From contig JAHRHZ010000250.1 in assembly GCA_024137785.1 (NCBI GenBank), forward strand, positions 1,346,515 to 1,410,514: a stretch of 64,000 bases of DNA. Reading direction: 5' to 3'. The stretch is from Ginglymostoma cirratum. Lineage: Eukaryota. A model generated the notes under the pieces. The model was given only the letters and a program-made list of their open reading frames with translations, made no database searches and was not told where the DNA came from. Positions 363 to 64,000 of the stretch are shown piece by piece (position 1 is the first letter of the stretch; each line of letters starts with the position of its first letter). A program made the position numbers and the translations under genes.

Positions 363-699
363 GCTACCAGTTGGCTAGAATCATAGAAGAAATAACTTAA
401 TTTTTCCTCAACAAGGAGTGAAAGCTGAAGGCACTTTGGAATTTTGGATTCAATGACATATTATTTTTAATGGAACCAATCAGTTATGATTGATCCATGG
501 ATTCATAATAATTTATTTTGAGATTTATATTATTCTACATTCTACAAAATATGACCATGAACCTGCTCTTGAATACTGCAAGAGAGATTTTTTTAATATA
601 ATTTGTGGCAGGCACTTTCAAAATAGCAACAGAAAAACTGGATTTCAGTTATAATTGGGCATAGATAAACCTGAGGGACGGCATTGTTTATAGGTTTCC

Positions 700-890
700 A
701 TCTTTAAAGAAAGAACTTTATTTCGATTGTATGAATTTAGATATGACACTGTTCAATGATCAGAAGCTGAGGTCTGATTGTGAATCTGAACTGCCCTCTT
801 CACTACCCAGACACCATCAGGGTCGATCGGACGGACAGTAAATTTGGATAATGAGACACTCGTTAAGATTTGTTCACGGAACCATTGATT
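700..890 (+). promoter_or_regulatory. Degenerate cPcdh promoter cassette (unit 1)
   Basis: CTTCACTACCCAGACACCATCAGGGTCGATCGGACG matches the core upstream of other exons; CCAAT mutated. Confidence 0.7.
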
Positions 891-1057
891 TAGAAAAGGC
901 AAAACAGAAGATTTAAATGAAATTAGTCAGTCGCATCGTGAACGATACAAGTATTTGCTATATCCCTTTTTATTTGTTCCGTTGAGAGGCTGTTCAGGTG
1001 AGAGGATCATTCTTGGTACCAAACGTTCTGAATCAAACAGAATGTCTCATACTGGAA

Positions 1058-3385
1058 ATGAGATACAAAATTGTGGGTTGATAAAATGCCATTTATTTCA
1101 CTTTGTGTTCTCCCTGTGGAGTCATGTGTTTATGCACATTCGTTACTTAATTCCTGAAGAACTGTAACAGGGTGTCTTTATCGGGAATATTGCTGTGGTT
1201 TTAAGTTTAAATGTAAAGCAGTTCTTGGCTCATTTCTTCCGTATTGTGCCCGTATCCAGGAACAAAATAAGGCATGAATTTTAACACCAGCACTTTATTC
1301 GTGAAAGAAACAAACGACAGCAAAGAGAGAGCTTGAGTTGTTTTTACTTTTACCTTGGGCGGTTAGCTTGGAACTCCAGTAGCGCTGTATCGATTTGCAG
1401 TGGAGATTCTCGACGCAAAAGACAGTGCTCCCAGTTTCCCAAAGAGTCAATGCTGCCAAGAAAAGTCAGAGCATTCAACGTGAGAAACGCACTTTTCAGT
1501 CGTATTTGAACATGATCCGATGTCGAACCAATTCCATGTAAACCTATGAGCTTCTTCTGAACGATTATTTTACCCTCGATGTGCAGATAAGCAATGAAGA
1601 AGGAAACCTACCTGTTTTGGTGCTGCAGTATTTCTTGCAGCGAGAAACGGAATGCAACAACTGTTTAACTTTAATAACCAAGAACAGCAGCATTCCCGTG
1701 AAGCTAGGAGCGTTTCGAGTTCTAATTGTGATAATGACAATGTTCCTGTCTTTTCTGAGCTAGTTTATACAGTCCGTCAATTAGAGCCTGCACGCGGAGG
1801 AGCGCACGTAATCGTATTGGATAACATTGAATCGGACAATGGTCCTCATGGAGAGATAACATGGTCTCTGTAGCGACACTTCAGCTGGAGCTCAGGAAAT
1901 ACTAAACGTGCATTTGAAGTAAAATTGAAAGGCGGGTGGTGCTATGAAAATTACAGATAGATTGATATTAAAATGAAAGTGATCGACAAAGGTTACGAGC
2001 CAATATCTGGGTACTGCGTTGTCCTTGTGAATAATGAAGTGAATGATGACTCACGTGAAGTAATGTTGAGGAGTTTGTCTCGGATAATTTCAGGAGATAC
2101 TCTAGTTGCGTTCGTAGTCGGTCTGTTCATTGTTGAAGATAAAGATTCAGTGAGAATTGGACAGTTACAATGTCAAATTTCAAATAAACTTCTCCTTAAA
2201 CTAGACTCTTCTTTGGAGAATTGTTATGGGATACTTGTTGATCATCTGTTGGATAGCGAAGGCGCCTTCATTTGTGACGTCACTATAATACGCACGGATA
2301 AAGGAAATCCACTTTATGTCAAAAATAGACGTTTCTGATATAAATGACATTGAGCCATGTTTCAAGCAGTCTTTATATACAGTCGGCATCTTGGAAAATG
2401 ATCTTATTGGTGATTCTATGTTTTCCATTACAGCCTATGATCCAGATTTTGGAACAAATGTGTGACTGAAATATTCTATCCAACAAGCTCAGTTCAGAAC
2501 GCCCGGTAATTATTCACATCTCTATCAACACTAATGCTGGTATCATATTCACGAGGGGTAGTACAGTTAATAAATCATACAATCCCCACATTGTGGCAGC
2601 AGACCATTCAGCACATCGAGTCCACCCAGACCCATTCCCTGTTCTTCCCCTGCATTTCCCACCTTAGACACTATGGGCAATTTAGCATGATCAATCCACC
2701 TAACCTGCACATCTTTGGACTGGGAGGAAACCGACATTGACACGGGGAGAATGTGCAAACTCCACACCCACAGTTGCCCAAGACTGGAATCAAACTCAGG
2801 TCCCTGGCGCTGTGAGGCAGCAGTGCTATCCACTGAGCCACCACGCTGCCTTAAGATGCCTCGAGGCAAAAGTAAAATACAGCGGATCACCGTCATTTTC
2901 TGCCACGGAAACCATATTCTTATTGGCAGCAGACATTGACTTTAAAACATTCTCCGCCATCAGTGGTTCGTCTAAAGACTCTTAGTGTACTCTTGATCCG
3001 AGCCTTTCACTTGGTTATCGCATTGGAGTAACTTCTGTCATTTTTCTTGTAATTTTAAGTATCCTCGTCATGAATGTTCATAAAAACACAAATGGTTTGA
3101 ATGCTCAATACTATTCCATGGAGTGCTGCTGTTACCTTGAACCCCGGTGCTTACTGACTAGAACTCAGAAAGCCAGTTAGGTATTCGATGGTGACCCACT
3201 TTCTCAAAGTTTTTGCTCTGATTCATATTCTACATTACAGTCGCCAAAGAGAGATATTATAACTGCCAACACGTGCATAACACCCACAGATAGGAAGTTT
3301 GTTCAGATTTAATGTATCAAGAAGAAACCCAAGAGAACGATTAGCTTTGAAATTAATTAATTTCAACAACACTGTAACCACTAAG
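1058..3385 (+). pseudogene. Decayed cPcdh variable exon (unit 1)
   Basis: GGAAATGAGATAC start context; fragments LPVLVLQ..RETE, GPHGEIT, QCQISNKL..LDSSLEN in shifting frames with stops; SINE inserted; donor AAG|GTGAGG retained at 3385/3386. Confidence 0.9.
2572..2850 (-). mobile_element. V-SINE (HE1-like shark SINE) inside pseudo-exon 1
   Basis: Minus strand GGTGGCTCAGTGG A-box, GAGTTTGATTCC B-box, V-domain TGTGGAGTTTGCACATTCTCCCCGTG...CCAAAGATGTGCAGGTTAGG, CR1-like tail. Confidence 0.85.
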
Positions 3386-9067: not shown

Positions 9068-11527
9068 ATGAGATATAACATTTATTCACTGCTAAAATGC
9101 CAATTATTGTACTGTGCATTTTCCTCGTGGAATCTGGTGCTTGGGCAGATTCGTTACTCTATTCCTGAAGAATTGCAGCTGGGCGCCTTTGTTGGAAATA
9201 TTGCAGAGGATTTCGGCTTAGATGTAAAGCAGCTCTCCACTCGCAGCTTTCGGCTTGTACCCGGTCCTAGGAAACAATATGTGGAGATCAATTTGGACAC
9301 TGGTATTTTATTCGTGAAGGATAAAATTGACAGAGAAGAGATTTGCGGCCGGAGCCTGAGCTGTGTTTTATCCTGGGGCGGTTTACTTGAAAACCCTTTA
9401 AAGCTCTACAAGGTTACAGTGGAGATTGTCGATGTAAATGACAATGCTCCCACTTTCCCAAAGAGACAATTCCACCTACAAATATCTGAGCGTTCTAAAG
9501 TAGGGATGCGTTTTCCCCTCGAGTCGGCTCACGATTTGGACATTGGAAACAACTCCGTACAAAAATACGAGCTCCTTCCGAACGACTATTTTGTTCTTGA
9601 CGTTCGGACTGGCGAAGGAAAAATGCCAGTGTTGGTTCTGAAGAGTTCTTTGGATAGAGAAACGGAATCCAGCCACAGCTTAAAGTTGATAGCCACGGAC
9701 GGCGGGATTCCTGTGAGGTCGGGCACAGTTGAGATCATAATCATTGTAAAGGATACAAATGACAACGTTCCTGTCTTCTTTCAGAAGGATTATCGAGCCA
9801 GTCTATTGGAAACTGCTCCAACAGGGACGCAAGTAATCATACTAAATGCTACCGACTCGGACGACGGTCTAAGTGGAGAGATTAGGTACTCGCTAAGTAG
9901 CCACACTTCAGCTACTGCTCGGGAAAAGTTTGGCATGGATGCCAAGACTGGTAAAATACAAGTGAAAGGGAGGTTGGACTACGAAGAAAGCAATACCTTC
10001 GAGCTTATCATACAAGCCATTGACGGGGGATCAGATCCAATGTCAGGACATTGTATAGTATTGGTGAATATTACTGATGTGAATGATAACCCTCCTGACG
10101 TGACGTTGACATCTTTATCACGCACAATTTCAGAAGCTGCTCCAGTTGGGTCTGTGGTCGCTCTTTTCAGCGCAGCGGATAAAGATTCGGGGAGAAACGG
10201 ACTGGTACAATGTCAAATTTCAAATAAATTACCCTTTAGACTAGATTCTTCTTTGGAAAATTTTTATGGAATACTTGTTCATCAGGCACTGGACCGGGAA
10301 AACGTCTCCAGCTACGATATTACAATAACACGCAAGCATGCAGGTAATCCTCCCCTTACATCGGAAAAAACCGTTCGAGTAGATGTTTCGGATATAAATA
10401 ATGCCCCACGGTTTACGCAGTCTTTATATACCACACATGTCAAGGAGAACAATGCTATTGGCGCTTCTATTTTTTCCATTACAGCCTTTGATCCAGACAT
10501 TGGACTGAACGCTCAACTGACATACTCCATCCTAGAGACTCAAGTTCTGAACTCTTCGGTATCCACTTACATCGCTGTTAACACGGAAACTGGTGTCATT
10601 TTCGCGCAGAGATCTTTCGACTACGAGAAATCTAAAAACTTTCGGATCCAAGCTCAGGTCATGGACCGTGGGACACCGCCACTCCCAAGTAATGTTTCTG
10701 TAAATATTATTGTCCTTGATGAGAATGACAACATTCCGGTCATTATGCAACCATTAGCCCAATTTGGATCAACAGCAGTCGAGACAATATCCAGGTTTGC
10801 ACAACCAGGCGACTTGGTTGCCAAGGTATCGGCAACGGACGCTGATGCCGGTCAAAACGCACGAGTCTCTTATTCCATTTTTCAGGCTACCCTTCATAAC
10901 CTTTTCACAATTTCACCAGACACGGGCGAGATTTGGACATTACGTCGTATCGCGAATAATGATGCCTCTGAACAAAGGTTGGTGATAATTGCGAAAGATA
11001 ATGGAAACCCATCACTTTCTGCCTCAGTGACCATCATCTTATCTGTGCATGGTGGCGATATTGCAACATTCTCCAGCGTCAGTGGTTCGTTTGGAGGTCC
11101 TACATTCACTCCTGATCTGGGCCTTTCCTTGGTCATCGTATTAGGAGGAATTTCTATCATATTTCTCGTGATCTAAGTTATTCTTGCTGCAATGGTTCAT
11201 AGAAGCAGAAACATTTTAAGTAGTCAGCACTGTTCCCTGAGACTCTGTTGTTGCGCTGAGACAAGACATTCTCTGAATAGAATCCAAAAAGCCAACAGAA
11301 ACCTTCAGATCCCTCCCAACTACGTCGAGGTGTTCGGGGGTGACCCACTTTCTCAGAGGTTCCGCTGTGAGTCATGTTCAACATTGCAGTCAACAAAGGG
11401 AGATGTCATAAATCCCAACATACGCAGATCAAACACAGACAGAAACTGTGTCCAAAACGAGTTTATCAGGAAAGAAAACGCAAGAATGATTAATTCTGAA
11501 AGTTGCAGCAACACGTTAAAGGATAAG
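9068..11527 (+). pseudogene. cPcdh variable exon with in-frame nonsense codon at the end of the TM (unit 2)
   Basis: 702-aa ORF with signal peptide and EC1-6 ends at TAA 11174-11176 (TTA in paralogs); same frame continues through the conserved cytoplasmic motif to donor AAG|GTGAGG at 11527/11528. Confidence 0.8.
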
Positions 11528-21544: not shown

Positions 21545-24482
21545 AAAGAGGCATTAAATTATATAGGCTGCTAAAATGTTCCTTATGCTACTGTATATTC
21601 TTCTCGTACAATCTACTGTTTGGGGAGATTCGTTACAGTATTGCTGAAGAACTGCAGACGGGCTCCTTTGTTCGAAATATCGCAGATGATGTAGTTTTTG
21701 ACGCAAAGCGGATCTCGGATGGTAGTTTTCAAATTGTACAGGACAGCAGGAAACAACATGTGGATTCATTTGGACACGGGCATTTTATTTGTGAAGGGCA
21801 AAAATTGACAGAAAAATGATTTGAGGCCCAAGCTTCAACTGTATTTTATCCTTGGGAGGTTGGCTTGAAAAGCCCTTAAAGCTGCTGAGATTGGTTGGCT
21901 CGCCGAGCTGGTTTGTTGACGTTTCGTTACCGTGCTTGGTAATATCCTCAGTGCAGCCTCTGATGAAGCGTCGGTGTGTTTTCCCGCTGGTTTTTCAACT
22001 CTGGGGTCCGTTGCGATGGATTGCCTCACTTCCGGGTTTCCTCAGTAGTGGAATGTATATGGGGTCGAGTTCAATGTGTTTATTAATAACATGCTTCGTG
22101 GAGTGCCATGCTTCCAGGAATTCTCGTGCTTGTCTCTGCCTAGCCTGTCCCAGGATCTTGGTGTAGTCCCAGTCGAAGTCGTGGTTCTCCTTGTCCATGT
22201 GTTAAAAACCAGGTGGAAAAACACACCGACGCTTCATCAGAGGCTGCACTGAGGATGTTACCAAGCACAGTAACGAAACATCTGCGGAACAACAAACCAG
22301 CTCGGCGAGCCAACCAACCTCAACACCCACAACCCGAGCTGCAGATCTACTCCAAAACCCTTGAAGCTCTACGAGGTTAGAGTGGCGATTCTCGACGTGA
22401 ATGACAATGCTCCCAGTTTTGAAGAGAAAGAATTTCGCCTTGAAATGTCCGAGCGCTCCAGGCTGGAAACGTGCTTCATCTTCGAGTCCGCGCAAGATTC
22501 CGAAGTTGGAACTAACTCCGTCCAAACCTCTGGGCTACTTCCCAATGACTATTTTATTCTCGATGTATAAATGCGCAATGGCAAAGAGAAATTGCCTGTT
22601 TTTGGTGTTGCAGAGTTTCTTGGATAGAGAAACCGAACAACAGGCAAACGCTGAAGGCCAAGGGTGGGGGGTTCCCGAAAGATCGAACACCGTACAGATC
22701 TCTATTAACGTAAAAGAGGCAAACGACTACGCCCCTGTCTTCCCCCAGTCAGTTTATAGAATCAGCCTGTTGGAGAGTACAACGACAGGAACACAGGTAA
22801 TCATTTTGAACGCCACTGACTTGGACGATGGTCCCAATAAAGAGATAACTTCGATCAAGGGTCACACTTCAGCTAAAGCTCGGGAACTGTTTGGCGTGGA
22901 TTCCAAAACTGGTGAAATCAAAATGAAAGGCAAGTTAGACTATGAAGAAAACAACGCCATTGAAAGTGACATACACGCAACAGACGCAGGACCTTACACT
23001 GTACCGGCGTACTGCGATGTTCTGCTGAATATTGTTGACGTGAATGATGATCTCCCTGAGGTGAAGTTGATGTCTTTGTCTCGCACAGTTTCAGAAGATG
23101 CTCAGGTTGAGACTCTAGTCGCTCTGTTCAATGCAACCGATAACGATTCGGGCAGATACAAGAAGGTACAGTGTCAAATTTTAAATGAGTTACCTTTTAA
23201 GTTAGATTCGTCTTTGGAGGATTATTGTGGAATACTTGTTCAAATTCCACAGGATCCGGAAAATGTGCCCAAGTATGACGTTACTATAGCAGCACTGATG
23301 AGGGAAATCCTCCTCTTACATCCGAGAAATCCATTTGGGTAGAGATTTTCGATATAGGTGACAATACACCACGGTTTACGCAGTCTTTAAACACCGCAAA
23401 CGTCATGGAGAGCAATATTATTGGCGCTTCTATATTTTGCATGACAGCCTTTGATACAGATGTGGAATTGAACGCTCGACTGAAATATTCAATCGTGGAG
23501 CTTCGAGGTCAGAACTCTTCGGTATCCAATTACGTTTCTGTTAACTCGGAGACTGGTGTCATATTCGCTAGGAGATATTTTGACTCCGATAAACTGAAAA
23601 ACTTTCAAATCTCATCTCGGGTCATGGACTCTGGGATACCACCAATTGTGAGTAATGTTTCATTAAAAGTCATTATTCCTGATCAGAATAACAATGTTCT
23701 CGTCAGTGTGCAGTCATTAGCCGAGTTTTGGGCAACAGCGGCAGAGACAATACACAGATTTGCAGTACCAGGCTAGTTGGTTGACAAGGTATCCGTCACT
23801 GACGCTGACGCCTGTCAGAACGCTTGTGTTTCTTATTCGATTTTTCAGACCACCCAGCATAATTTTTTTTACTATTTCATCAGAAACTGGGGAAATCGGA
23901 CAATCCGTCGTTTTGCGAATAAGATATTTCTAAACAAAAGACTATTGATTCTGGTGAAAGATAATGGAATGCCATTACTTTCTGCCTCGGTAACCATCAT
24001 CTTATCTGTGGCTAGCGATGACACTGAAACATTCTCCAGTGTCAGTGGCTCGCCTGAAGATCCCCGATTCACTCTGTATCTGAGCTTTTCCTTGGTCATC
24101 GCATTCGGAACAAATTCTATCATTTTTCTTGTTGTTTTAATAATCGTCACTGCGAAGGTTCATAAAAGCAGGAATGCTTTGGACGGTCAGTACCGTTCCT
24201 TGGGAGGGTGTTGTTGCGTTAAAACAAGGCATGCTCTGAATGGAATTCAAAATACCAGTAGAAACCTCCAGATACCCCAGACTATGTTGAGGTATTCGGG
24301 AGAAATCCCTTTCGTCGGTTATGAGTCATACTTTAACATTTCAGCCAACCAAGAGTGACTTCAAAACTCACAATGCCTTGCAGTTATCGACAGACATGAA
24401 TTATGTGCAGAACGATGCTAGTGGGAAATAAACCATGAGAATTATTAATTCTGAATGTGACAGTAACTCTGTTATCTAAGAG
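21545..24482 (+). pseudogene. Decayed cPcdh variable exon (unit 4)
   Basis: Start codon lost (GGAAAAGAG); multiple frameshifts and stops (ORF pieces 22361, 22401, 23405, 23777); insertion in EC1; donor GAG|GTGAGG at 24482/24483. Confidence 0.92.
21884..22353 (-). mobile_element. Penelope-like insertion with inverted arms in pseudo-exon 4
   Basis: ORF 21995-22198(-) HDFDWDYTKILGQ...AREFLEAWHS...INKH (GIY-YIG C-terminal part); arms 21886-21999 and 22201-22322; flanked by AAAAGCCCTTAAAGCT / AAAACCCTTGAAGCT. Confidence 0.8.
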
Positions 24483-50905: not shown

Positions 50906-51034
50906 AGACAGCTAGAACTGCAGATACTGCAGTCAGAGATAACAAAGTGTGAGACTGAAGGAACACAGCAGGCCATGCAGTATCCGAGGAGCAGGAAAGT
51001 TGACGGTTCGGGTCGGGACCTTTCTTGGGAATGG

Positions 51035-51880
51035 CTCAGATCTCGATAATTGTAAACAATGCAAACGGCAATGCTCCCGTCTTCTGCCAGTCAGTTTACA
51101 GAGTCAGTCTATTCGAGAATGCAGCCACAGGAACGCTATGATAATATTAAATGCCACTGGCTTGGACAATGGTACCAATGGAGAGATAAACTATTCTTTT
51201 GGTAGCCACGCTTCAGCTGGAGTTCGGGAACAGTTTGGCATGGATTCTAAAACTGGTGAAATCAGAGTGAAAGGAAAGTTGGACAATGAAGAAATCGCCG
51301 CCGTTGAAATTAAGATGCATGCTACAGACGAGAGGTCTGAGGTTATGTCGAGGCTCTGTGAGGATTTGGTAAATATTATTGATGCTAATTTTCACCCACC
51401 TGAAGTGAGTTTGACGTCTTTATCGAGTAAAATTTCGCAAGATGCTCCAATTGCGACTATGATCGGTTTGTTCGCTGCAGCGGATAAAGATTCCAGCAGA
51501 AATGGACAGGTACATTGTCACGTTTCAACAGCACTACTATTTAAACTGGATTCCTCTTTGAAACATTTTTATGGAATAATTATTCATCATCCGCTGGATC
51601 CTGAAAATACTTCCAAATATGACGTTACGATAACATACACGGATGCTGGAAATCCTGCACTTACATCGGAGAAAACTGTTCAGGTCACCGTTTCCGATAT
51701 AAATGACAATGCGCCACAGTTCAGTCAATCTTCATTTACAGCAAACATAAGAGAGAATAATGATACTGGCGCATCTTTATTTTCCATTACAGCCTTTGAT
51801 CCCGATACTGTGTGAACGCTCGACTGAAATACGCCGTCCTGGAGATTCAAAATCAGTGCGCTCGTTATTCAATTACATCG
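51035..51880 (+). pseudogene. Internal cPcdh exon fragment (end of EC2 to mid EC5; unit 8)
   Basis: ORF 50949-51815 contains ILNAT...GEINYSF...DINDNAPQF...ITAFDPD; no signal peptide, EC1, TM, promoter or donor. Confidence 0.9.
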
Positions 51881-51949
51881 AAGCAATTAATTGTGCATGC
51901 ATTGCCTTATTTCATTTATTCACAACATGGTCCTGTACTGTCTCATGCA

Positions 51950-54602: not shown

Positions 54603-54835
54603 TTTTTAATTGTGCAACAGTATTTGCGCTCATTTCAGAACTCCCAGCTTTAAGAAATCAACGATAATTTGATTGGACGAATTTAAACGTGCTGCTCTTC
54701 ACCAATCAGAACTTGAAATGTGGTTCGGGATCCGGACGGCCCCTTCACTACCCAGACACCATCACGTCTGATCAGACACTGAGTCAAATTGGATGGCAAG
54801 CAGCTCGGCAGGAATTCTTCACGAATCGAATGGAC
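54603..54835 (+). promoter_or_regulatory. cPcdh promoter cassette (unit 9)
   Basis: GATTGG, TGCTCTTCACCAATCAG (CCAAT 54702), CCCTTCACTACCCAGACACCATCACGTCTGATCAGAC. Confidence 0.8.
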
Positions 54836-55003
54836 ATTTTAGAGAAAATAGAACAATTAAATGATATAAGCGGAGCGATTCGTGAAACGTCAAGGTATTT
54901 GCTATGTCGCAGTTGTTTTCGATACAAAAAACGACAAAACTATAAAGAGAATAATTAATGCTGCGGGTGCATACTGAAATAAGGGGAATGTGTGACTCTG
55001 GAA

Positions 55004-57472
55004 ATGAGGTATAAAATATTTTGGTTTTTAAAATGCCAATTCTTGTACTGCGTATACTCTTCTTGGAATCGAGTATTTGGAGAGATTCGTTACTCAATTC
55101 CTGAAGAACTGCAACTCGGCGCCTTTGTTGGGAATATCGCTGAGGATCTCAGCTTAGATGTAAAGCAGCTCTCGGCTCGCAATTTACGAATAGTAGCCGG
55201 TCCCAACAGACAATGTGTGGATATAAATTTGGACATTGGCATTTTAATGGTTACGAAAACAATTGACAGAGAAGAGATTTGCGGACTGAGCCTGAGTTGT
55301 GTGCTAAGCTTCAACGTTTTCCTTGAAAACCCTTTAAAGCTGTACCAGGTTGCAGTGGAGATTCTCGATGTAAATGACAATGCTCCTAGTTTCCCAAATA
55401 CACAATTCCGCCTAGAAGTGCCAGAGCGCTCTATTCCTGGAACGCGCTTTCAACTCGAGCCCGCGCACGATCTGGACGTTGGAACCAACTCCGTGCAAAC
55501 CTATGAGCTCCTTCCGAACGATTATTTTATTCTTGATGTACAGATGCGCAGTGGTAATGTAAAATCGCCGGTATTGGTGCTACAGAGTTCCTTGGATAGA
55601 GAAGCAGAAACCAGCCACATATTAACGTTGATAGCCAAGGACGGCGGAATGCCCGTGAGATCGGGCACGGGTCGGGTTTTGATAATTGTAAACGATGCAA
55701 ACGACAATGCTCCTGTCTTCTCCCAGTCAGTTTACAGAGTCAGTCTGTTAGAGAATGCAGCCACAGGAACGCAGGTAATCACACTAAATGCCACTGACTT
55801 GGATGATGGCCCAAATGGAGAGATAAGCTACTCATTTGGTAGCCACACTTCAGCTCGAGTTCGGGAAATGTTTGGGGTGAATTCCAAAACTGGTGAAATT
55901 ATAGTAAAACGGACGTTGGACTATGAACAAACCAGTGTCTTTGAGTTAAACATTCAGGCTACAGACGGAGGTTCTGACGCTATGTCGGGGCACTGTGATG
56001 TTTTGATAAATATTATTGATGTGAATGATAACCCACCTGAGGTGAAGTTGACGTCTTTATCAAGTACAATTTCGGAAAATGTAGCAGTTGGGACTGTAGT
56101 CGCTCTGTTCGCTGCAGCAGATAAAGATTCGGGGAGAAACGGACAGGTACAATGTCATATTTCAAATAAATTGCCATTTAAACTGGATTCTTCTTTAAAG
56201 AATTATTATGGAATACTTGTTCATCATTCACTTGACCGTGAAAATACCTCCATGTATGACGTTACAATAACATGTTCGGATGCAGGAAATCCTCCACTTA
56301 CATCCGAGAAAAACATTCGGGTCGAGGTAACCGATGTGAATGACAACGCGCCACAATTCAGTCAATCTGTGTTTACAGCAAGCCTAATGGAGAATAATGA
56401 TATTGGCGCTTCTATACTTTCCATTACAGCCTTTGATCGTGATGTTGGAGTGAACGCTCAACTGAAATACATTATTATGGAGACTCAAATTCAGAATGCC
56501 TCCGTATTCAATTACATCTCTATTAGCCCGGACACTGGTGTCATATTCGCTCAAAGATCTTTTGACTATGAGCAACTGAAAAATTTTCAGATTCAAGCTC
56601 AGGTCATGGACTTTGGGACGCCATCACTCGCAAGTAATGTTTCAGTGAATGTGATTATCCTGGATCAAAATGACAATGTTCCAGTCATTGTACAGCCAGT
56701 GGCCGAATTTGGGTCAATAGCAGTTGACACAATATCCAGGTTTGCAGAACCAGGCTATTTGGTTGCCAAGGTATCCGCCACTGACGCTGATGCCGGTCAG
56801 AACGCTCGTCTTTCTTATTCCATTTTTCAGGCTACCCAGCATAACCTTTTTACTATTTCACCAGACACTGGGGAAATTTGGACGATCCGTCGTGTCGTTA
56901 CTAACGATGCCTCTCAGCAAAGGTTGGTGATTCTGGTAAAAGATAATGGATCACCATCTCTTTCTGCTTCAGTGACTATTGTCTTAACTGTAATTGGTGA
57001 TGAGGCTGAAATGTTATCCAATGTCAGTGGTTCATCTAAAGACCCCGGGTTTAGTCCTGAACTGAGCCTTTCCTTGGTCATCACATTCGGAAGCATATCT
57101 GCCATTTTTCTCGTGATTTTAATTATTCTCGCTGTGAAGGTTCATAAAAGCAGGAATCCACAGAGCGGTCAGCACTGTTCCCTCGGAGTTTGTTGCTGCA
57201 TTGAAACTGTACATTCTCTGAATGGAATTCAAAAGGCCAGTAGAAACCTTCAGATACCCTCGAATTACGTTGAGGTATTCGGTGGTGACCCACTTTCTCA
57301 GAGTTTCCGTTATGAGTCATGTTCAACATTGCAGTCAACAAGGAGAGACTTCATAACCCCCAACAGATGCAAGTCACCCACGGACAAAATGTATGCCCAG
57401 AATGATTATGTTGGGAAACAGGATCCACAGTTGCTGCCCACTGAGAAGGTCAGCAACACTTTGTACAATGAG
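55004..57472 (+). CDS. Clustered protocadherin variable exon (unit 9), 823 codons
   Basis: Intact ORF from ATG 55004; donor GAG|GTGAGC. Confidence 0.95.
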
Positions 57473-57519
57473 GTGAGCCATTTCGAAAATGGGAATAGGT
57501 TTTTTTTAATTCTTTCAAG

Positions 57520-58075
57520 CAATGTGAGCATCACAGTTTGGCCAGCACTTTTGCACTGTCCTAATTGTCCTGAAGTTGTTTTCCAGTTGCCTTCTTGAAC
57601 TGTGGCGCTGGTGTTTTCACCCTGTATTTAGACAGGGATTCCCAGATTTGACTCCACGACAGTTTTGGAACTATGTTCTACTTTCAGGCCAGGATAGTCT
57701 ATGTCGTGTGAAGTTGTTTTTTATTTGCATATGCTATTCTTGTGCTTCTAGTTACTACTTGTCATGCATTTTCAAGTAATGTCAGAGAGGCCTTCGTGAG
57801 TTACTGCAGTGCATCTTATAGATAGTGCACACTGCTGGCATGGTTCATTGATGGTGAGGGGAGTAGTTATCGAAGATGTTATGTGGTGTGCCAGTCAAAT
57901 GCACAGTTGGTCTTTGTCGGCGTTAAATATCCTGAGTGTTGTTGGAAATGTCTCCCTCCAGGAAAATGGAGCACATTCCATCCATTCCTCATTTTCGCCT
58001 TAAAGTTTTTGAACTGGTCTGGGGAGTCAGAAAGTGAGATTCTTTGCCAGAATTATTAGGCTCTGACCTACTCTT
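57520..58075 (-). mobile_element. Non-LTR LINE 3' fragment, decayed
   Basis: Reverse-complement similarity to 6400-7072. Confidence 0.55.
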
Positions 58076-58082
58076 GGTTGTC

Positions 58083-58300
58083 AGGTATCTCAGCTGGCTG
58101 AATGTCCGGTTTCCAATAAAAAAACAATGCAACCTGTGTTCCATTCCTGCACTGGTTGATGTTCCCATGAAAATATTCTCCTCCTTGACCTCTCCCTCAC
58201 TTAAGGTGTGGTGATTCTTAGGTTGAACCACCACCACTCATTTCTCTGTAATGAGAGAGCACCCTTATGGGTTCAGTAGGACTATGACCAATTTACCTTT
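58083..58300 (+). mobile_element. tRNA-derived SINE, decayed
   Basis: GGTATCTCAGCTGGCTG head, AGGTGTGGTGA...AACCACCACCA body; similar to 40250-40455. Confidence 0.55.
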
Positions 58301-58499
58301 TATCATTTCTGGTCTATTGGTAAATAACAAATGATTGATCCATGGATGTGCAAATTTTTTAGGAAGTACCTCATTTGTAAATGATATGACTGTTTATTTA
58401 ATGTAGATTTAAATATATTTAATTTCCTGTGTAATAATAATTTCTTCTCACATTTCCTGATTTCATGTTGGTATCTCCGGTGATGTGTTTGTTTTGATT

Positions 58500-59040
58500 C
58501 ACCTGTGGGACACGGGCGCTGTTGACTGGCTAGCATTTATTGATTGTCCCTAGTTGCCCTTGAAAAGGTGGTAGCAAGTTGCCTTCTTGAACCACTGCAC
58601 TCCATTTGGTGTACGTTGACCCACATTAGGGTGGAATTCCAGGATTTTGACACAGCATTAGGCAATATGTTTCCATATCAGGATGGTGAGTGGCTTAAAG
58701 AGGCACTTGAAGATAGTGGTGTTCCTGTGTATCTGATGCCCTTATCCTTCTGCATGGAAGTGGTCCTGGATTTGGAAGATGTCATTTAAAGATCTTTGGT
58801 GAATTTCTGCAGCACCTCTTGTCGATAGTACACACTGTGGATGTTGTGCCAATCAACTGGTCTGTGTTGCCCTGGATAGTGTTGCAGAGTTTTTTCAGTG
58901 CTGTTAGGTTTGCACCATCCAGACAAGTGGGAAATGTTCTATTACACTGCTGACTCGTGTATTGTAGATGGTGGTTAAGCTTTGGGGAGGCATGAGCTAT
59001 GTTGCTCGCCATAATATTCTTACCCTCTCATCTATTCTTG
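58500..59040 (-). mobile_element. Non-LTR LINE 3' fragment
   Basis: AGCATTTATT...GTTGCCCTTGAAAAGGTGGT...CTTCTTGAACCACTGCA is the reverse complement of the 3' end at ~6960-7040. Confidence 0.65.
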
Positions 59041-59114
59041 TTTACAATTTGCAACTTACAATCGCCCTGTTATTTGAAGGGTATTATTTAGCAGACGTTT
59101 CAGAAGTGATTTAC

Positions 59115-60060
59115 CAGGATGTTGCCGGGAATGGAGCCTTTGAATTATAAAGAGAGGATGGATAGGCTGGGAGATTTTGTTTTCCACTGGAGCATTGGAG
59201 TTTGAGGGGTGACCTTATCGAGGTTTACAAAATATTGAGGATATGGATTGAGTGAATGGAAGGTGTCTTTTCCCTCGGGTGGGGGATTTCAAGACTATGG
59301 GGCATAGTTTTCAGTGAGAGTAGAAAGATTTTAAAAAGACATGGGGGTGACTTTTTAACACAGCGCGTGTTTTGTGTGCAGAATGAACTTCCGGATGAAA
59401 TTGTGAATGAAGGTATTGTTACAATGTTTAAAAGATGCTTAGACGAGGAGATGAATATGAAACGTCTGGAGGTATATGTGCCAACGAGAGGAAGATGGTA
59501 CTCGTTTAGTTTGCAATAATGGTCAGTGTAGAATGGTTGGATAGAAAGATGTGTATCCGTGCTGTATGACTGTATGAATCTACTGTGATTAAGTGTAATT
59601 CCAGTAAGTTCAAAAGTCATATTTACCTATTGGTCGGTGGTCCACATCATTTTCAGATTCTTTTTAAGTCTATAGTTGCTTACTTATAAGCATTGAAAAT
59701 GTAGACACTACAAAGATCAAAGAACAGCACAGCATCGTAACAAGCCATTTGACCCACCAAGACTGCGCTAACACATGATGCCTTTTGAAACTAAAAACCT
59801 TTTGCCTCTACATGGTCTGTATCCCTCTGTTCCCTAATTATTCACATGCCTATCAAGATGCCTCTTAAGTGTTTTTATTGTGCCTGCCTCCATCAGATTC
59901 TCTGATAGCCCATTCCAGGCATTTACCACCCTCTGCTTAAAAACCTGATTCTCACATCTCCTTTAAACTTGTCCCCTTTTGACTTAAGCCTGTGTTCACT
60001 AGTATTGACAGTTCTTCCCTGGGGAAAATACTCTGGATATCCATTGTATCCATGATTCAT
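59115..60060. mobile_element. Two CR1-type LINE 3' fragments, tail-to-tail
   Basis: Plus copy ~59115-59590 (FLTQRVF..QNELP), minus copy ~59715-60060. Confidence 0.65.
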
Positions 60061-61139
60061 CCATTACCGAAACTCCCTAATCATTTATATATTAACTCTG
60101 TGTAAAGACTCTCAGCTTAGATATAACAACACAAACACAGAGCGTGTTCGCTGACAGCAGGATTGCAGTCCTAACCAAAGGTTACAAAGTAGTTACGTAA
60201 CGTCTCGGTTTGAAATAGATCCAAGCAAAGAAGATTTGAAGTTGCTGAGGGCTCTGACACAAATTCGAGCGAAATCAATGAATCATCTTGATGGTTCTGG
60301 AATGCTCTTGTACATGCAAATAAATTGCCTCATGTCTGTAAAAATACAATTTGCAAGGTTACTTGGAAGTAATTGCTGGTATATTCATTATTTTAAGTCC
60401 TCTCTTCATTACATGGTTGTGTACTAGATAATGCAGTAAACAGTAAATCCCACTATTGCAGACATAGTGAGTAATAATATGAACTGAGGGGCTACAATGT
60501 GTATTTACACACTATTTTGAATGCAAACTCGACCAGGCCTGTTTTCCCATCCACTACACAACCCCGCTCTTCGATTATTCCCAACTTTTATACCGACCCC
60601 ATAGAGAATACAAAGCCAGCCATAATCCATCTTGCATCATACACTGTAATTATATTTAAATAAAATCAAAATGTGTAAGAGAAACGAATCAGATCTGGTT
60701 GCATCTGAGGAGAGAGAAACGAAGTTCATGTTTTGAGTCCAATATGACTGTCCATCAAACGATCCATAAAAACCTAAAACATTTTCCCAGTTCCTCTTTA
60801 TGAAGTTTCTGCCAGACCTACTGAGTTTATCCAGCACATTTGGCTATTAATTCAGATCTCCAGCATCCACAATATTTTACTGTAATCACATTTGGCAATT
60901 ATTTATTCACTTCAAGTGATCCTGTTTTTGAGTAATAAAATGTTGCTACAGTGGATGAATAAATAATAAATAGTAACTGTTGACAAATTGGATGGTTAAA
61001 ATCGGTTGCGAATATTTAAATAGTGAAGCATCAGAAAATTAATGGCTAGTGTAATAAGTAGGGTTCAAAAATGTGCTTAGTAGAAGGGAAAGGTAATCCT
61101 GATCTAATTACTCATTATAAAACATCTCTCAAGTGATTT

Positions 61140-61880
61140 TTCCCAGTATTTATGATGTAGAATTCTGTAAGCTCACAAACATTTGACTAAAAAAATGTTT
61201 CCATATCTCAGTCTTAAATGGTCTACCCTCTATCCTGAGACCGTGACCCCTGGGGTTACACGTCCCAACTAGAGAACTCATCTTCCCTCTACCTGATCTG
61301 TCCAGCTTGTTGGAATTTTATATGCTTCTATCAAATCTCCTCTCATCCCTACACTGCCAGTCGAAATTTCTCATAAACTAATGTCAGCCCAGTGGAACCT
61401 TTTCAACACTCCCTCGATGAGAAGGATATCCTTTCTTCGGGACAGAGACCAAACCTGCATGCTATACTCAAGGTGTAATTTCACCAAACCTTGTTGTCGT
61501 AAGATATTCCTACTTTGGAACGCATATCTTCTTCCAATGAAAGACAATAAACCCCACTGCCTGACTACTTTCATTGGCACACGTGCACAGACACAGGGTC
61601 CTTGCATATATCCACGTCTGGAAGTCTTCTTCCAAACTTCTGATGGCTCAAAATCTCATCAGTTTTGTATCGTCAACAAACGTAGAAATGTTGCATTATA
61701 ATTTGTTCCTTCATCCTGGTCATAAATATTATATACATAATATATACATATGAAACGCTGTGGCTGAAACACCATACCTTGCGGTATGCAAGTTTTCAGT
61801 ATATACCACTGAGAACACAAACGTCTCTTTCATCAATCTCTCTGTTTCATCTCTGTCAACCAAATTTCAATCCATGACAA
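61140..61880 (-). mobile_element. CR1-type LINE fragment
   Basis: ORF 61371-61607(-) LVKLHLEYSMQVWS..RRKDI. Confidence 0.7.
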
Positions 61881-62751
61881 TTTATTAACATGTATCGTAT
61901 GTAGTTTAATTTTGCTTCCTAAACTCATTTCTCTGATATTACCAGGTTGATCATGGAACACCATAAAGGCATTATTTTTTGGAAACCAAAAACGTGTATT
62001 TGGATGCATTTGGAAATAAATCATCTCAAACCCTGACAAATTATTATGCCAACCATTCTTCAAATTCTTTCCATGAGAAATCCTGGAATGTTGCGTGTTG
62101 GACTCGCCAAAAATACATTTCATGCCTTAGAAATTGAACAATGTCCATGTTCTTTGGAGGCCTCTCGTAACTCTATGTTTTCGAACTGCTGATGCAACTA
62201 TTGCATGACTCAGCTTCGAAAACAGAAGTTCACGTGTGTGTTCCTTCATTTTCTTGAAAGCGACAGATAACCTTGAAAATACCACAATATCTATCTTGGA
62301 CCATAGTGTAAGACGTGAGGGAGGAATAACTCAATCTGCGTATAATTCTCCACAATTGTGCATGGCACCAGATTGGAAAGATTTTTTTCCACGGATTAAT
62401 ACATCCATAATACAGTGAATGGAAATTATTACAAGTGACACTGGATAGTAATATGGAATCTGAAAGTGAAATTGAGAATAGTAATGCCTATTTTCACATT
62501 TCTCATCAAAAGGTGAACGATGAAATATTTTTGTGTTCCTGTAGTGAGAAATGCCCAATTTGGCAACAGAATGCAATGACCAAGAACCAGAGCTGAATTA
62601 TAAATTAAACAATACTTACACAGAAATGAGGCATATAACAAATGTTATTTTATTCTTATTTCTCCTGTCATGTGTAGTATGTTGTCATTGCTTTCCAGAT
62701 GTAACTTTGATACACGGGAGAAACAATACAGTTCATTACATCTTAAAATAT

Positions 62752-62995
62752 TTTTTAGTGTGCAACAATAAATCTGGACAATTGCACTCACTGCAGAACT
62801 CCCAGCTTTAAGAAGCCAACGGTAATTTGATTGGTCAAATTTAAATGTGCTGCTCTTCACCAATCAGAACTTAAGATGTGGTTGGGGATCCGGACAGCCC
62901 CTTCACTACCCAGACACCATCACGTCCGATCACGCACAGAGATAAAATTGGATTGCAAGCGGCTCGTTCGGAATTGTTCACGAATCCACTCGACA
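62752..62995 (+). promoter_or_regulatory. cPcdh promoter cassette (unit 10)
   Basis: GATTGG, TGCTCTTCACCAATCAG (CCAAT 62860), GGATCCGGACAGCCCCTTCACTACCCAGACACCATCACGTCCGATCA. Confidence 0.8.
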
Positions 62996-63163
62996 TTGAG
63001 AAAAAATAGAAGACTTAAATGGTAGAATCCTAGCGATTCGTGAAATGTTCAGGTATTTACTACGGCGCAGTATCTTTCGAAATAAAAGCATTGATACAAC
63101 TATAAAGAGAATAATTAATGCTGCGGGTACATGCTGAAATAAAGGTAATGTTTGACTCTGGAA

Positions 63164-64000
63164 ATGAGATATAAAATATTTTGGCTTCTGAAATGCCAAT
63201 TCTTGTACTGCATATTCTTTTCTTGGAACCTAGTGTTTGGACAGATTCGCTACTCAATTCCTGAAGAACTGCAACTCGGCGCCTTTGTTGGGAATATCGC
63301 TGAGGATCTCAGCTTAGATGTAAAGCAGCTCTCGGCTCGCAATTTACGAATAGTAGCCGGGTCCAAAACACAACATGTGGATATAAATTTGGACATTGGC
63401 ATTTTAATGGTGACGAAAACAATTGACAGAGAGGTGATTTGCGGACCGAGCCTTAGTTGTGTGCTGAGCTTCAACGTTTTCCTTGAAAACCCTTTAAAGC
63501 TGTACCAGGTTGCAGTGAAGATTCTCGACGTAAATGACAATGCTCCTAGTTTCCCAAATACACAATTCCGCCTAGAAATCTCAGAGCTTTCTGTTCCTGG
63601 AACGCGCTTTCCACTCGAGCCCGCGCACGATCTGGACGTTGGAACCAACTCCGTGCAAACCTATGAGCTCCTTCCGAACGATTATTTTATTCTCGATGTA
63701 CAGATGCGCAGTGGTAATGTAAAATCCCCGGTATTAGTGCTGCAGAGTCCTTTGGATAGAGAAGCAGAAACCAGCCACAAATTAACGTTGATAGCCAAGG
63801 ACGGCGGAGTGCCCATGAGATCGGGCATGGTTCAGATCTCGATAATTGTAAATGATGCAAACGACAATGCTCCCGTCTTCTCCCAGTCAGTTTACAGAGT
63901 CAGTCTGTTAGAGAATGTAGCCACAGGAACGCAGGTAATCATATTAAATGCCACTGACTTGGACGATGGTCCCAATGGAGAGATAAGCTACTCATTTGGT
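63164..64000 (+). CDS. Clustered protocadherin variable exon (unit 10), 5' part, truncated by window end
   Basis: MRYKIFWLLKCQFLYCIFFSWNLVFGQIRYSIPEE... colinear without indels with unit 9 at an offset of 8160; absent from ORF track because no stop is reached. Confidence 0.9.
   Translation, partial: MRYKIFWLLKCQFLYCIFFSWNLVFGQIRYSIPEELQLGAFVGNIAEDLSLDVKQLSARNLRIVAGSKTQHVDINLDIGILMVTKTIDREVICGPSLSCVLSFNVFLENPLKLYQVAVKILDVNDNAPSFPNTQFRLEISELSVPGTRFPLEPAHDLDVGTNSVQTYELLPNDYFILDVQMRSGNVKSPVLVLQSPLDREAETSHKLTLIAKDGGVPMRSGMVQISIIVNDANDNAPVFSQSVYRVSLLENVATGTQVIILNATDLDDGPNGEISYSFG

What the first reader, a model, noticed from the sequence alone, without database searches (positions are those of the whole stretch)
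55004..64000. Near-identical paralogs 9 and 10 differ mainly at probable trans-recognition positions
Seen: 55081-55620 versus 63241-63780 differ at 30 of 540 nt by hand count (~94% identical), with replacements clustered at mature residues 41-45 (PNRQC vs SKTQH), 113-118 (VPERSI vs ISELSV) and 124 (Q vs P). Known: cPcdh homophilic specificity uses antiparallel EC1:EC4 and EC2:EC3 interfaces; from recall, mouse beta-isoform specificity swaps involved residues near 41, 117 and 125 (numbering needs verification). Inference: snapshot of a new recognition specificity arising after duplication or conversion, using the same surface as mammals.
Basis: partly seen in the sequence, partly recalled or inferred. 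Interest (0 to 1): 0.7.

Follow-up and report, generated by a model that had tools for sequence, protein, structure and literature searches.

The report
Old shark protocadherin duplicate pair
These are two neighbouring, intact copies of a shark gene for neuron self-recognition (88% identical proteins) that likely duplicated before related shark species split and likely recognise only themselves through a few surface residues, two of them at positions used by a known mouse pair, which is the ordinary pattern for this family and not a new specificity caught arising.

Summary
The count is right (30 of 540 nt), but the reading was drawn from one of the most similar stretches. With unit 10 completed from the genome, the two variable exons differ at 98 of 822 residues (dS 0.19, dN/dS 0.30), as often outside EC1-4 (48/372) as inside (45/424). 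Only 8-12 of the 45 EC1-4 changes fall in interface elements taken from the literature, which is the chance share (22-28% of sites). The recalled mouse beta6/beta8 sites are real but map to shark 40, 116, 124, 373, 375: 116 and 124 differ, the other three are identical. Residues 42-44 align with a motif reported exposed in alpha dimers. The pair is old: flanks are 73-79% identical, a second species holds both flanks at 91-94%, and a 9+10 clade is rejected (AU p 0.014). They are nu-type clustered protocadherins of a carpet shark, probably partly homogenised by conversion and likely with distinct specificities set mainly in EC2. Side result: close paralogs in three other sharks vary about twice as much at the EC2:EC3 contact elements, which supports the mammalian binding surface for the family. 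No dimer model could be run.

The parts
54620..55003 (+). Unit 9 promoter and 5' leader; conserved block with a CCAATC motif at 54702, also found before 3 other units of the window besides unit 10
   Evidence: 57 of 381 aligned nt differ from unit 10; motif found before 5 of 8 starts tested
55004..57472 (+). Unit 9 variable exon: signal peptide, EC1-EC6, transmembrane helix, variable cytoplasmic part; donor GAG|GT at 57472/57473, in phase with the first constant exon (L005:1280)
55082..56353 (+). Unit 9 EC1-EC4 (mature 1-424), the trans-binding region in solved relatives; aligns without gaps to mouse alpha7 1-424 (shown with unit 10, which has no indel against unit 9)
55202..55216 (+). Unit 9 residues 41-45 PNRQC (EC1 C-D loop); next to contact residue 40, but 42-44 align with the alpha RGD motif reported exposed; C45 is an extra cysteine
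55418..55453 (+). Unit 9 residues 113-124 (EC2 A' strand, A-B loop, B strand) with P114, R116, I118, Q124; best candidate specificity patch
55667..55681 (+). Unit 9 residues 196-200 TGRVL (EC2 strand G); third cluster of changes, outside the listed contact elements
57473..62779 (+). DNA between units 9 and 10; 57500-61134 is colinear with the DNA after unit 10 (L001:3191-7164) at 74-79% of aligned columns; holds high-copy repeats around 57600-59900
62780..63163 (+). Unit 10 promoter and 5' leader, CCAATC motif at 62860
63164..64000 (+). Unit 10 variable exon, 5' part; continues intact beyond the window to L001:3146 (donor AAG|GT), no indel against unit 9; N369 adds an N-glycosylation sequon in EC4
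63362..63376 (+). Unit 10 residues 41-45 SKTQH
63578..63613 (+). Unit 10 residues 113-124 with I113, S114, L116, V118, P124; 113-117 match the state common among neighbouring paralogs
51027..51925 (+). Unit 8: degenerate third copy lacking EC1-EC2, about 81% identical to both 9 and 10, with a homologous downstream flank

Best explanation
Units 9 and 10 are two intact variable exons of a carpet-shark clustered protocadherin array that likely arose by a tandem duplication older than the split from related sharks, were likely partly homogenised by gene conversion, and likely bind only their own kind through a minority of their differences, chiefly EC2 residues 114, 116, 118 and 124. Each exon has its own promoter block and a donor in phase with downstream nu-type constant exons (shown by sequence; splicing inferred). 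By homology each protein would form an antiparallel EC1-EC4 trans dimer (inferred). A 9:10 heterodimer would pair mismatched EC2 A-B surfaces (R/L116, Q/P124) with an identical EC3 F-G hairpin and a slightly different EC3 C-D loop (259, 263), with possible help from residues 1, 41, 322, 328 and a glycan site at 369 (inferred, untested). About three quarters of the EC1-4 differences lie outside the mapped contact elements and look like ordinary divergence under purifying selection.
For: Exon and splice anatomy. Spread of differences: 45/424 in EC1-4 vs 48/372 in EC5-cytoplasmic; dN/dS 0.30 overall, 0.23-0.27 inside and 0.30-0.31 outside the interface sets. No enrichment: 8 of 45 in a 92-site set (P 0.80), 12 of 45 in a 120-site set (P 0.66); 3 of 17 literature-named positions differ (P 0.27). 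Age: paralogous flanks are 21-27% diverged, while contigs of a second species match flanks of both units at 6-9%. Units 9 and 10 differ at 64 of 626 ectodomain residues, more than unit 9 differs from whale and zebra shark relatives (53, 55, 59) and more than 7 one-to-one ortholog pairs with this genome (27-55). A 9+10 clade is rejected, p-AU 0.014. Conversion: four-fold sites differ at 45/335 (13%) vs 21-26% in the flanks (P 1e-3 and 6e-8), and synonymous differences are lower in EC1-2 than EC3-4 (P 0.03-0.04). Distinct specificity is plausible because mouse beta6/beta8 at 92% EC1-4 identity show no cross-binding and five residues, including the 116 and 124 equivalents, account for it (PMC8901172).
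Against: The interface here is a set of regions mapped from published text onto a monomer model, not atomic contacts, so borders are uncertain. If 42-45 are counted as interface and only residues 1-180 are examined, 10 of 15 changes fall inside (P 0.003). The clustering of replacements is real. Zebra shark's two copies are identical at 41-45 and 113-124, and the one second-species contig per run over 113-118 resembles them, so these differences may have arisen in this lineage after conversion. Low synonymous divergence could partly reflect constraint on a CpG-rich exon (CpG o/e 0.8 vs 0.38 in the intron) rather than conversion. Single beta6 mutants mostly kept beta6 behaviour, so two matching sites do not guarantee separate specificities.
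Confidence: 0.65

Rival explanations
1. Character displacement after conversion: EC1-EC2 of the two old copies were homogenised near the split from zebra and whale sharks, and selection in this lineage then pushed them apart at 41-45 and 113-124 to restore separate identities (a modified form of the first reader's idea, but not recent).
For: EC1-2 synonymous difference (dS 0.11-0.14) is the lower part of the exon and not far above the species-level flank divergence (0.07-0.10). The zebra shark pair is identical at these patches. Both units carry states absent from three close relatives there: unit 9 at 43, 45, 114, 124; unit 10 at 41, 42, 45, 113, 116, 118. The three patches hold 14.5 nonsynonymous vs 2.5 synonymous differences.
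Against: The patches were picked because they are dense in changes, and 14.5/36 vs 2.5/12 sites is too small to test. One patch (196-200) is off the mapped interface and is as dense. Private changes are not enriched in the wide interface set (unit 9: 2 of 15, 4.2 expected; unit 10: 8 of 24, 6.8 expected). Unit 10's I113 and L116 match common paralog states (53 and 29 of 60 other sequences), which fits retention or a short conversion tract rather than invention.
Confidence: 0.2
2. The two isoforms still cross-bind, and their differences are near-neutral drift at tolerant surface sites, so they act as one recognition class.
For: The EC1 F-G region, EC2 D-E loop, EC3 F-G hairpin and EC4 strand B are identical, as are 14 of 17 literature-named positions. 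Changed sites are ones that vary among paralogs in other sharks (mean 0.26 vs 0.13, P 8e-6). The closest solved structure is non-clustered Pcdh10, and delta-protocadherins show some heterophilic binding (PMC8901172).
Against: R/L116 and Q/P124 are non-conservative changes at positions with mutational evidence in mouse. No heterophilic binding was found between any mouse clustered isoforms tested, including a pair at 92% identity.
Confidence: 0.13
3. A recent, lineage-specific tandem duplication caught while a new specificity arises, with most changes at the interface.
For: 94.4% identity over the first 540 nt and clustered replacements; these are the most similar pair among 11 intact neighbouring units compared (89% vs at most 76%).
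Against: Flank divergence, second-species flanks, tree test and whole-exon counts. Close pairs at 88-92.5% EC1-4 identity also occur in four other sharks (5 pairs picked as close).
Confidence: 0.02

Closest known systems
Elephant shark (Callorhinchus milii) Pcdh-nu subcluster, e.g. nu17, nu15, nu8
   Same: Tandem large variable exons, six EC repeats, and a constant region that starts with a near-identical motif and has the same repetitive exon; nu proteins are 61-64% identical to unit 9.
   Different: No one-to-one ortholog; units 9 and 10 sit in a carpet-shark-specific clade. The elephant shark cluster is described as having little gene conversion (PMC2764143 passages), whereas close paralog groups here form lineage-specific clades.
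Mouse Pcdh-beta6 / Pcdh-beta8 pair
   Same: High EC1-4 identity (92% vs 89.4% here); differences at the equivalents of 117 and 125; no listed partner change in EC3.
   Different: The EC1:EC4 determinants of the mouse pair (41, 369, 371) map to shark 40, 373, 375 (372/374 with the other possible offset), all identical in units 9 and 10. Beta has no constant exons and is a different subcluster; binding was measured in mouse and not here.
Orthologous group in zebra, whale, bamboo and epaulette sharks (P0001, P0121, P0028; P0003-P0007, P0122-P0124)
   Same: One clade with 100/99 support; two sequences from zebra shark and four from epaulette shark were retrieved.
   Different: The zebra shark pair differs at 32 EC1-4 sites, 15 shared with the 9/10 list (3.4 expected) but none at 41-45 or 113-124.
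Non-clustered delta-2 protocadherins Pcdh10 and Pcdh19
   Same: Pcdh10 is the top sequence and fold match; Pcdh19 uses the same antiparallel EC1-4 dimer, with S116 and P126 (shark 114, 124) at the interface (PMC5115871).
   Different: They are single genes, not variable exons of an array; the family shows some heterophilic binding.

Membership tests
Clustered protocadherin variable exon | One large exon encoding signal peptide, six EC repeats, transmembrane helix and short cytoplasmic part | tested here: met
Clustered protocadherin variable exon | Tandem same-strand array | tested here: met
   44 of 47 EC1 matches lie on contig C250, + strand, 17 kb to 1.44 Mb
Clustered protocadherin variable exon | Own promoter with a conserved motif before each exon | tested here: inconclusive
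   A conserved block with CCAATC about 300 nt upstream was found for 5 of 8 starts tested; identity with the mammalian CSE/CTCF site and activity were not tested
Clustered protocadherin variable exon | Splicing to shared constant exons | tested here: inconclusive
   In-phase donors and four downstream constant exon matches; one contig stops aligning at the donor and runs on, but its continuation was not shown
Pcdh-nu subcluster of cartilaginous fishes | nu-type constant region downstream and closest named relatives are nu | tested here: met
   (compared by eye with C. milii nu17; other subcluster constant regions were not compared)
Clustered protocadherin trans-recognition unit | Antiparallel EC1:EC4 / EC2:EC3 homodimer | tested here: inconclusive
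   No complex model was available. Indirect: paralog variability 0.27 at 49 EC2:EC3 contact-element sites vs 0.12 at 83 equivalent sites of non-contact repeats (P 1e-6)
Clustered protocadherin trans-recognition unit | Strictly homophilic binding | not testable with these tools
   needs aggregation or SPR assays
Recent duplicate diverging at the interface | Young age: similar flanks and sister relationship | tested here: not met
Recent duplicate diverging at the interface | Replacements enriched at contact residues | tested here: not met
   8/45 and 12/45 against 22% and 28% of sites; region-level map only

The most novel reading that the evidence does not exclude
After conversion erased the EC1-EC2 differences between two old shark nu-protocadherins, selection re-separated them at the same two EC2 positions (116, 124) that separate mouse beta6 from beta8. 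Position 116 toggles among paralogs in every larger shark group sampled. That would mean jawed vertebrates reuse the same few hot-spot residues, in unrelated subclusters, to mint new neuronal identity tags.
Probability: 0.2. Interest if true: 0.5.

Novelty: new member of a known kind. Interest (0 to 1): 0.22.

Why it matters
As it stands this is an ordinary close paralog pair in a well-known gene array, so it matters little alone. Two things are of modest use. [quoted passage not shown] And the excess of paralog variation at EC2 A-B, EC2 D-E and EC3 F-G in three other sharks suggests that the mammalian recognition surface predates the split of sharks and bony vertebrates.

Tried and rejected
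The monomer model (mean pLDDT 76.7, pTM 0.47) was used only for strand positions; the fold search returned protocadherins, with large rmsd against chains that include EC1-2, so domain orientations were not trusted. Goodman 2016 Neuron, Rubinstein 2015, Nicoludis 2015, Yu 2008 and Noonan 2004 were not held. Full interface residue lists stand in figures that are not held; the supplements of PMC5001838 were listed but not read. No RNA holder was listed on record for unit 9, and a poly(A) run gave depth of about 1 or less over the unique exon bins; neither is used as evidence on expression. A site-model dN/dS was not run; only counting estimates were made. Literature pairs whose shark equivalents were ambiguous because of indels (gammaA 206 and 257, gammaB 253 and 294) were left out of the 17-position list. 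An E1-K322 pairing (both in unit 9 and one zebra shark copy) was noticed, but K322 occurs without E1 in other paralogs, so it was not pursued. Assembly artefact was rejected: flanks differ by over 20%, and contigs of other runs match unit 9 (730 nt, 0 differences) and unit 10 (115 nt, 0 differences), though these runs may not be independent of the assembly. Earlier scan findings: none returned.
Full report
What the region is. The window holds ten same-strand protocadherin units, intact or degenerate. It lies at G000:C250:1346515-1410514, in an array with 44 EC1 matches on that contig. The best named relatives of unit 9 are from zebra shark (90%) and whale shark (91%, partial), then bamboo and epaulette sharks (about 80%), and elephant shark nu proteins (61-64%). 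Constant exons matching a zebra shark isoform lie downstream at L005:1279-1335, L005:7296-7547, L047:5697-5807 and L048:6545-6700, and resemble the nu17 constant region. Donors of both units are in phase with the first constant exon. So these are nu-type clustered protocadherin variable exons of a carpet shark; the lineage is inferred from the named hits.

Observation. The 30 of 540 count is exact and the nine cited replacements are present, but six more lie in the same stretch and a third cluster, 196-200, follows just after it. Unit 10 was completed from L001: it is intact, with no indel against unit 9. Whole exon: 198/2466 nt and 98/822 aa differ; dS 0.19, dN 0.057, ratio 0.30. By domain: EC1 8/102, EC2 14/109, EC3 12/108, EC4 11/105, EC5 14/110, EC6 6/106, membrane and cytoplasmic part 28/156. 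The recognition domains are not more diverged than the rest. Replacements in EC1-4 do cluster beyond chance (P 0.002-0.006).

Numbering. The mouse beta6/beta8 residues are R41N, S117I, L125P, E369K, Y371F, and that pair is 92% identical in EC1-4 with no cross-binding (PMC8901172, passages). Chain offsets give beta = shark + 1 in EC1-EC2 and shark minus 3 or 4 in EC4. This assumes chain index equals paper numbering, which I checked against alpha7 K40, gammaA9 K41 and gammaB4 E41. The five sites map to 40 (G/G), 116 (R/L), 124 (Q/P), 373 (K/K) and 375 (Y/Y): 2 of 5 differ. Alpha7 aligns without gaps over 1-424, placing its RGD at 42-44, and that motif is reported exposed in alpha4 and alpha7 dimers (PMC5115871, section text). 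So most of the 41-45 patch is probably beside, not in, the interface. Pcdh19 S116 and P126 (shark 114, 124, mapped by motif) are interface residues. Of 17 literature-named positions, 3 differ (114, 116, 124; P 0.27).

Interface enrichment. No dimer model could be run. I mapped the shared contact elements listed in PMC5115871 onto the strands of a monomer model. A narrow set (92 of 424 sites) holds 8 of 45 changes (P 0.80); a wide set (120 sites) holds 12 (P 0.66); adding 42-45 gives 15 of 45 in 124 sites (P 0.32). dN/dS is no higher inside the sets (0.23-0.27) than outside (0.30-0.31). The EC3 F-G hairpin, EC2 D-E loop, EC1 F-G region and EC4 strand B are identical, so no compensating changes are seen there. 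EC3 259 and 263 and EC4 322, 328 and 369 differ, and N369 gives unit 10 a new glycosylation sequon.

Age and history. Flanks of the two units are homologous and colinear but differ at 21-27% of aligned columns, and a third, truncated copy (unit 8) shares them. A shuffled control gave 40% under the same gap-tolerant alignment, so these figures may understate divergence. Contigs of a second species match unit 9's upstream flank (173 differences in 2686 nt), the intervening DNA and unit 10's upstream flank at 6-9%, so both positions likely existed before that species split. In protein terms 9 and 10 differ more from each other (64/626) than unit 9 does from whale and zebra shark relatives (53-59). 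In a 23-sequence tree (a subset of the 62 aligned) unit 10 branches first, and holding 9 and 10 together is rejected (p-AU 0.014); conversion makes such trees approximate. Four-fold sites (45/335) are less diverged than the flanks, EC1-2 less than EC3-4, and the longest identical run, 110 nt, is longer than chance (P 0.016). This fits partial conversion, a known process in these clusters (PMC2764143 and PMC4978886, passages), although constraint on a CpG-rich exon could contribute. Five close pairs that I picked from four other sharks are 88-92.5% identical in EC1-4, so such a pair is not rare.

Evidence that cuts the other way. The zebra shark pair differs at 32 EC1-4 sites, 15 shared with the 9/10 list, but is identical at 41-45 and 113-124. 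Second-species contigs show N42, T43, Y45 and V113, S114, R116, like zebra shark (contigs may merge or miss copies). So at these patches both units have left a shared state, which keeps a lineage-specific re-divergence alive. Against it, unit 10's 113-117 codons match neighbouring paralogs, which suggests retention or a short conversion tract, and private changes are not enriched at the interface.

Family-level side result. Among close paralogs of epaulette shark (4), catshark (10) and white shark (6), mean variability is 0.27 at 49 sites of the EC2:EC3 contact elements and 0.12 at 83 sites of the same elements in non-contact repeats (P 1e-6); the wide and narrow sets give the same direction. 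Position 116 is among the 45 most variable sites. Caveats: sites are not independent, the control set was drawn after I had seen the variable sites, the non-contact C-D loops of EC4 and EC5 are as variable (0.33, 0.28), and low EC1 values may reflect conversion. It still supports a mammal-like binding surface in sharks, in line with the known emphasis on EC2/EC3 for specificity (PMC5001838, two parts of the main text; 10.1101/493106, first quarter).

Mechanism. Shown: two intact exons, their differences, old flanks, matching constant exons. Inferred from the family: promoter choice, splicing, antiparallel EC1-4 dimers. Inferred and untested: distinct homophilic specificity, set mainly by EC2 114/116/118/124 with help from a few EC3 and EC4 sites. 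Other papers seen: PMC5106212 (abstract, passages, two parts), PMC8901172 section 6, PMC11406177 (passages, nothing relevant).

Verdict. A real but ordinary close paralog pair; new member of a known kind; interest 0.22. The parallel at 116 and 124 with mouse beta6/beta8 is the part worth keeping.

Noticed in passing
window 9068-11518: Unit 2 has one in-frame TAA at 11174 inside the transmembrane segment, a changed EC4 F-strand motif and a one-residue loss in the EC4-5 calcium motif, while its whale shark ortholog (P0025) is intact; it looks like a young pseudogene.
   Followed up: partly
window 698-3306, 21545-24313, 51027-51925; L007:250-2630: Four degenerate or frameshifted variable exons among the intact ones, showing steady gene turnover in the array.
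   Followed up: partly
L001:1860-1868 (unit 10 residues 369-371): D369N creates an N-S-S glycosylation sequon next to the EC4 D-E loop; N occurs here in 1 of 60 other sequences. A glycan there could alter EC1:EC4 binding.
   Followed up: no
window 55214-55216: Unit 9 has an extra cysteine at 45 where close relatives have tyrosine; it could allow an intermolecular disulfide artefact in assays.
   Followed up: no
P0008-P0026 (catshark) and P0010-P0012, P0091, P0125, P0126 (white shark): Ten catshark and six white shark nu-like isoforms form lineage-specific groups, and variation among them is high at EC2 114-129, 157-159 and EC3 296-303.
   Followed up: partly
G000:C250:17201-1440967: The array spans over 1.4 Mb with about 44 EC1 matches and large gaps (for example 17-260 kb, 260-481 kb, 964-1136 kb) that may hold constant exons of other subclusters.
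   Followed up: no
window 62548-62876: One run of the second species gives two different full-depth contigs on unit 10's upstream flank (26 and 20 differences), hinting at an extra copy or two alleles there.
   Followed up: no
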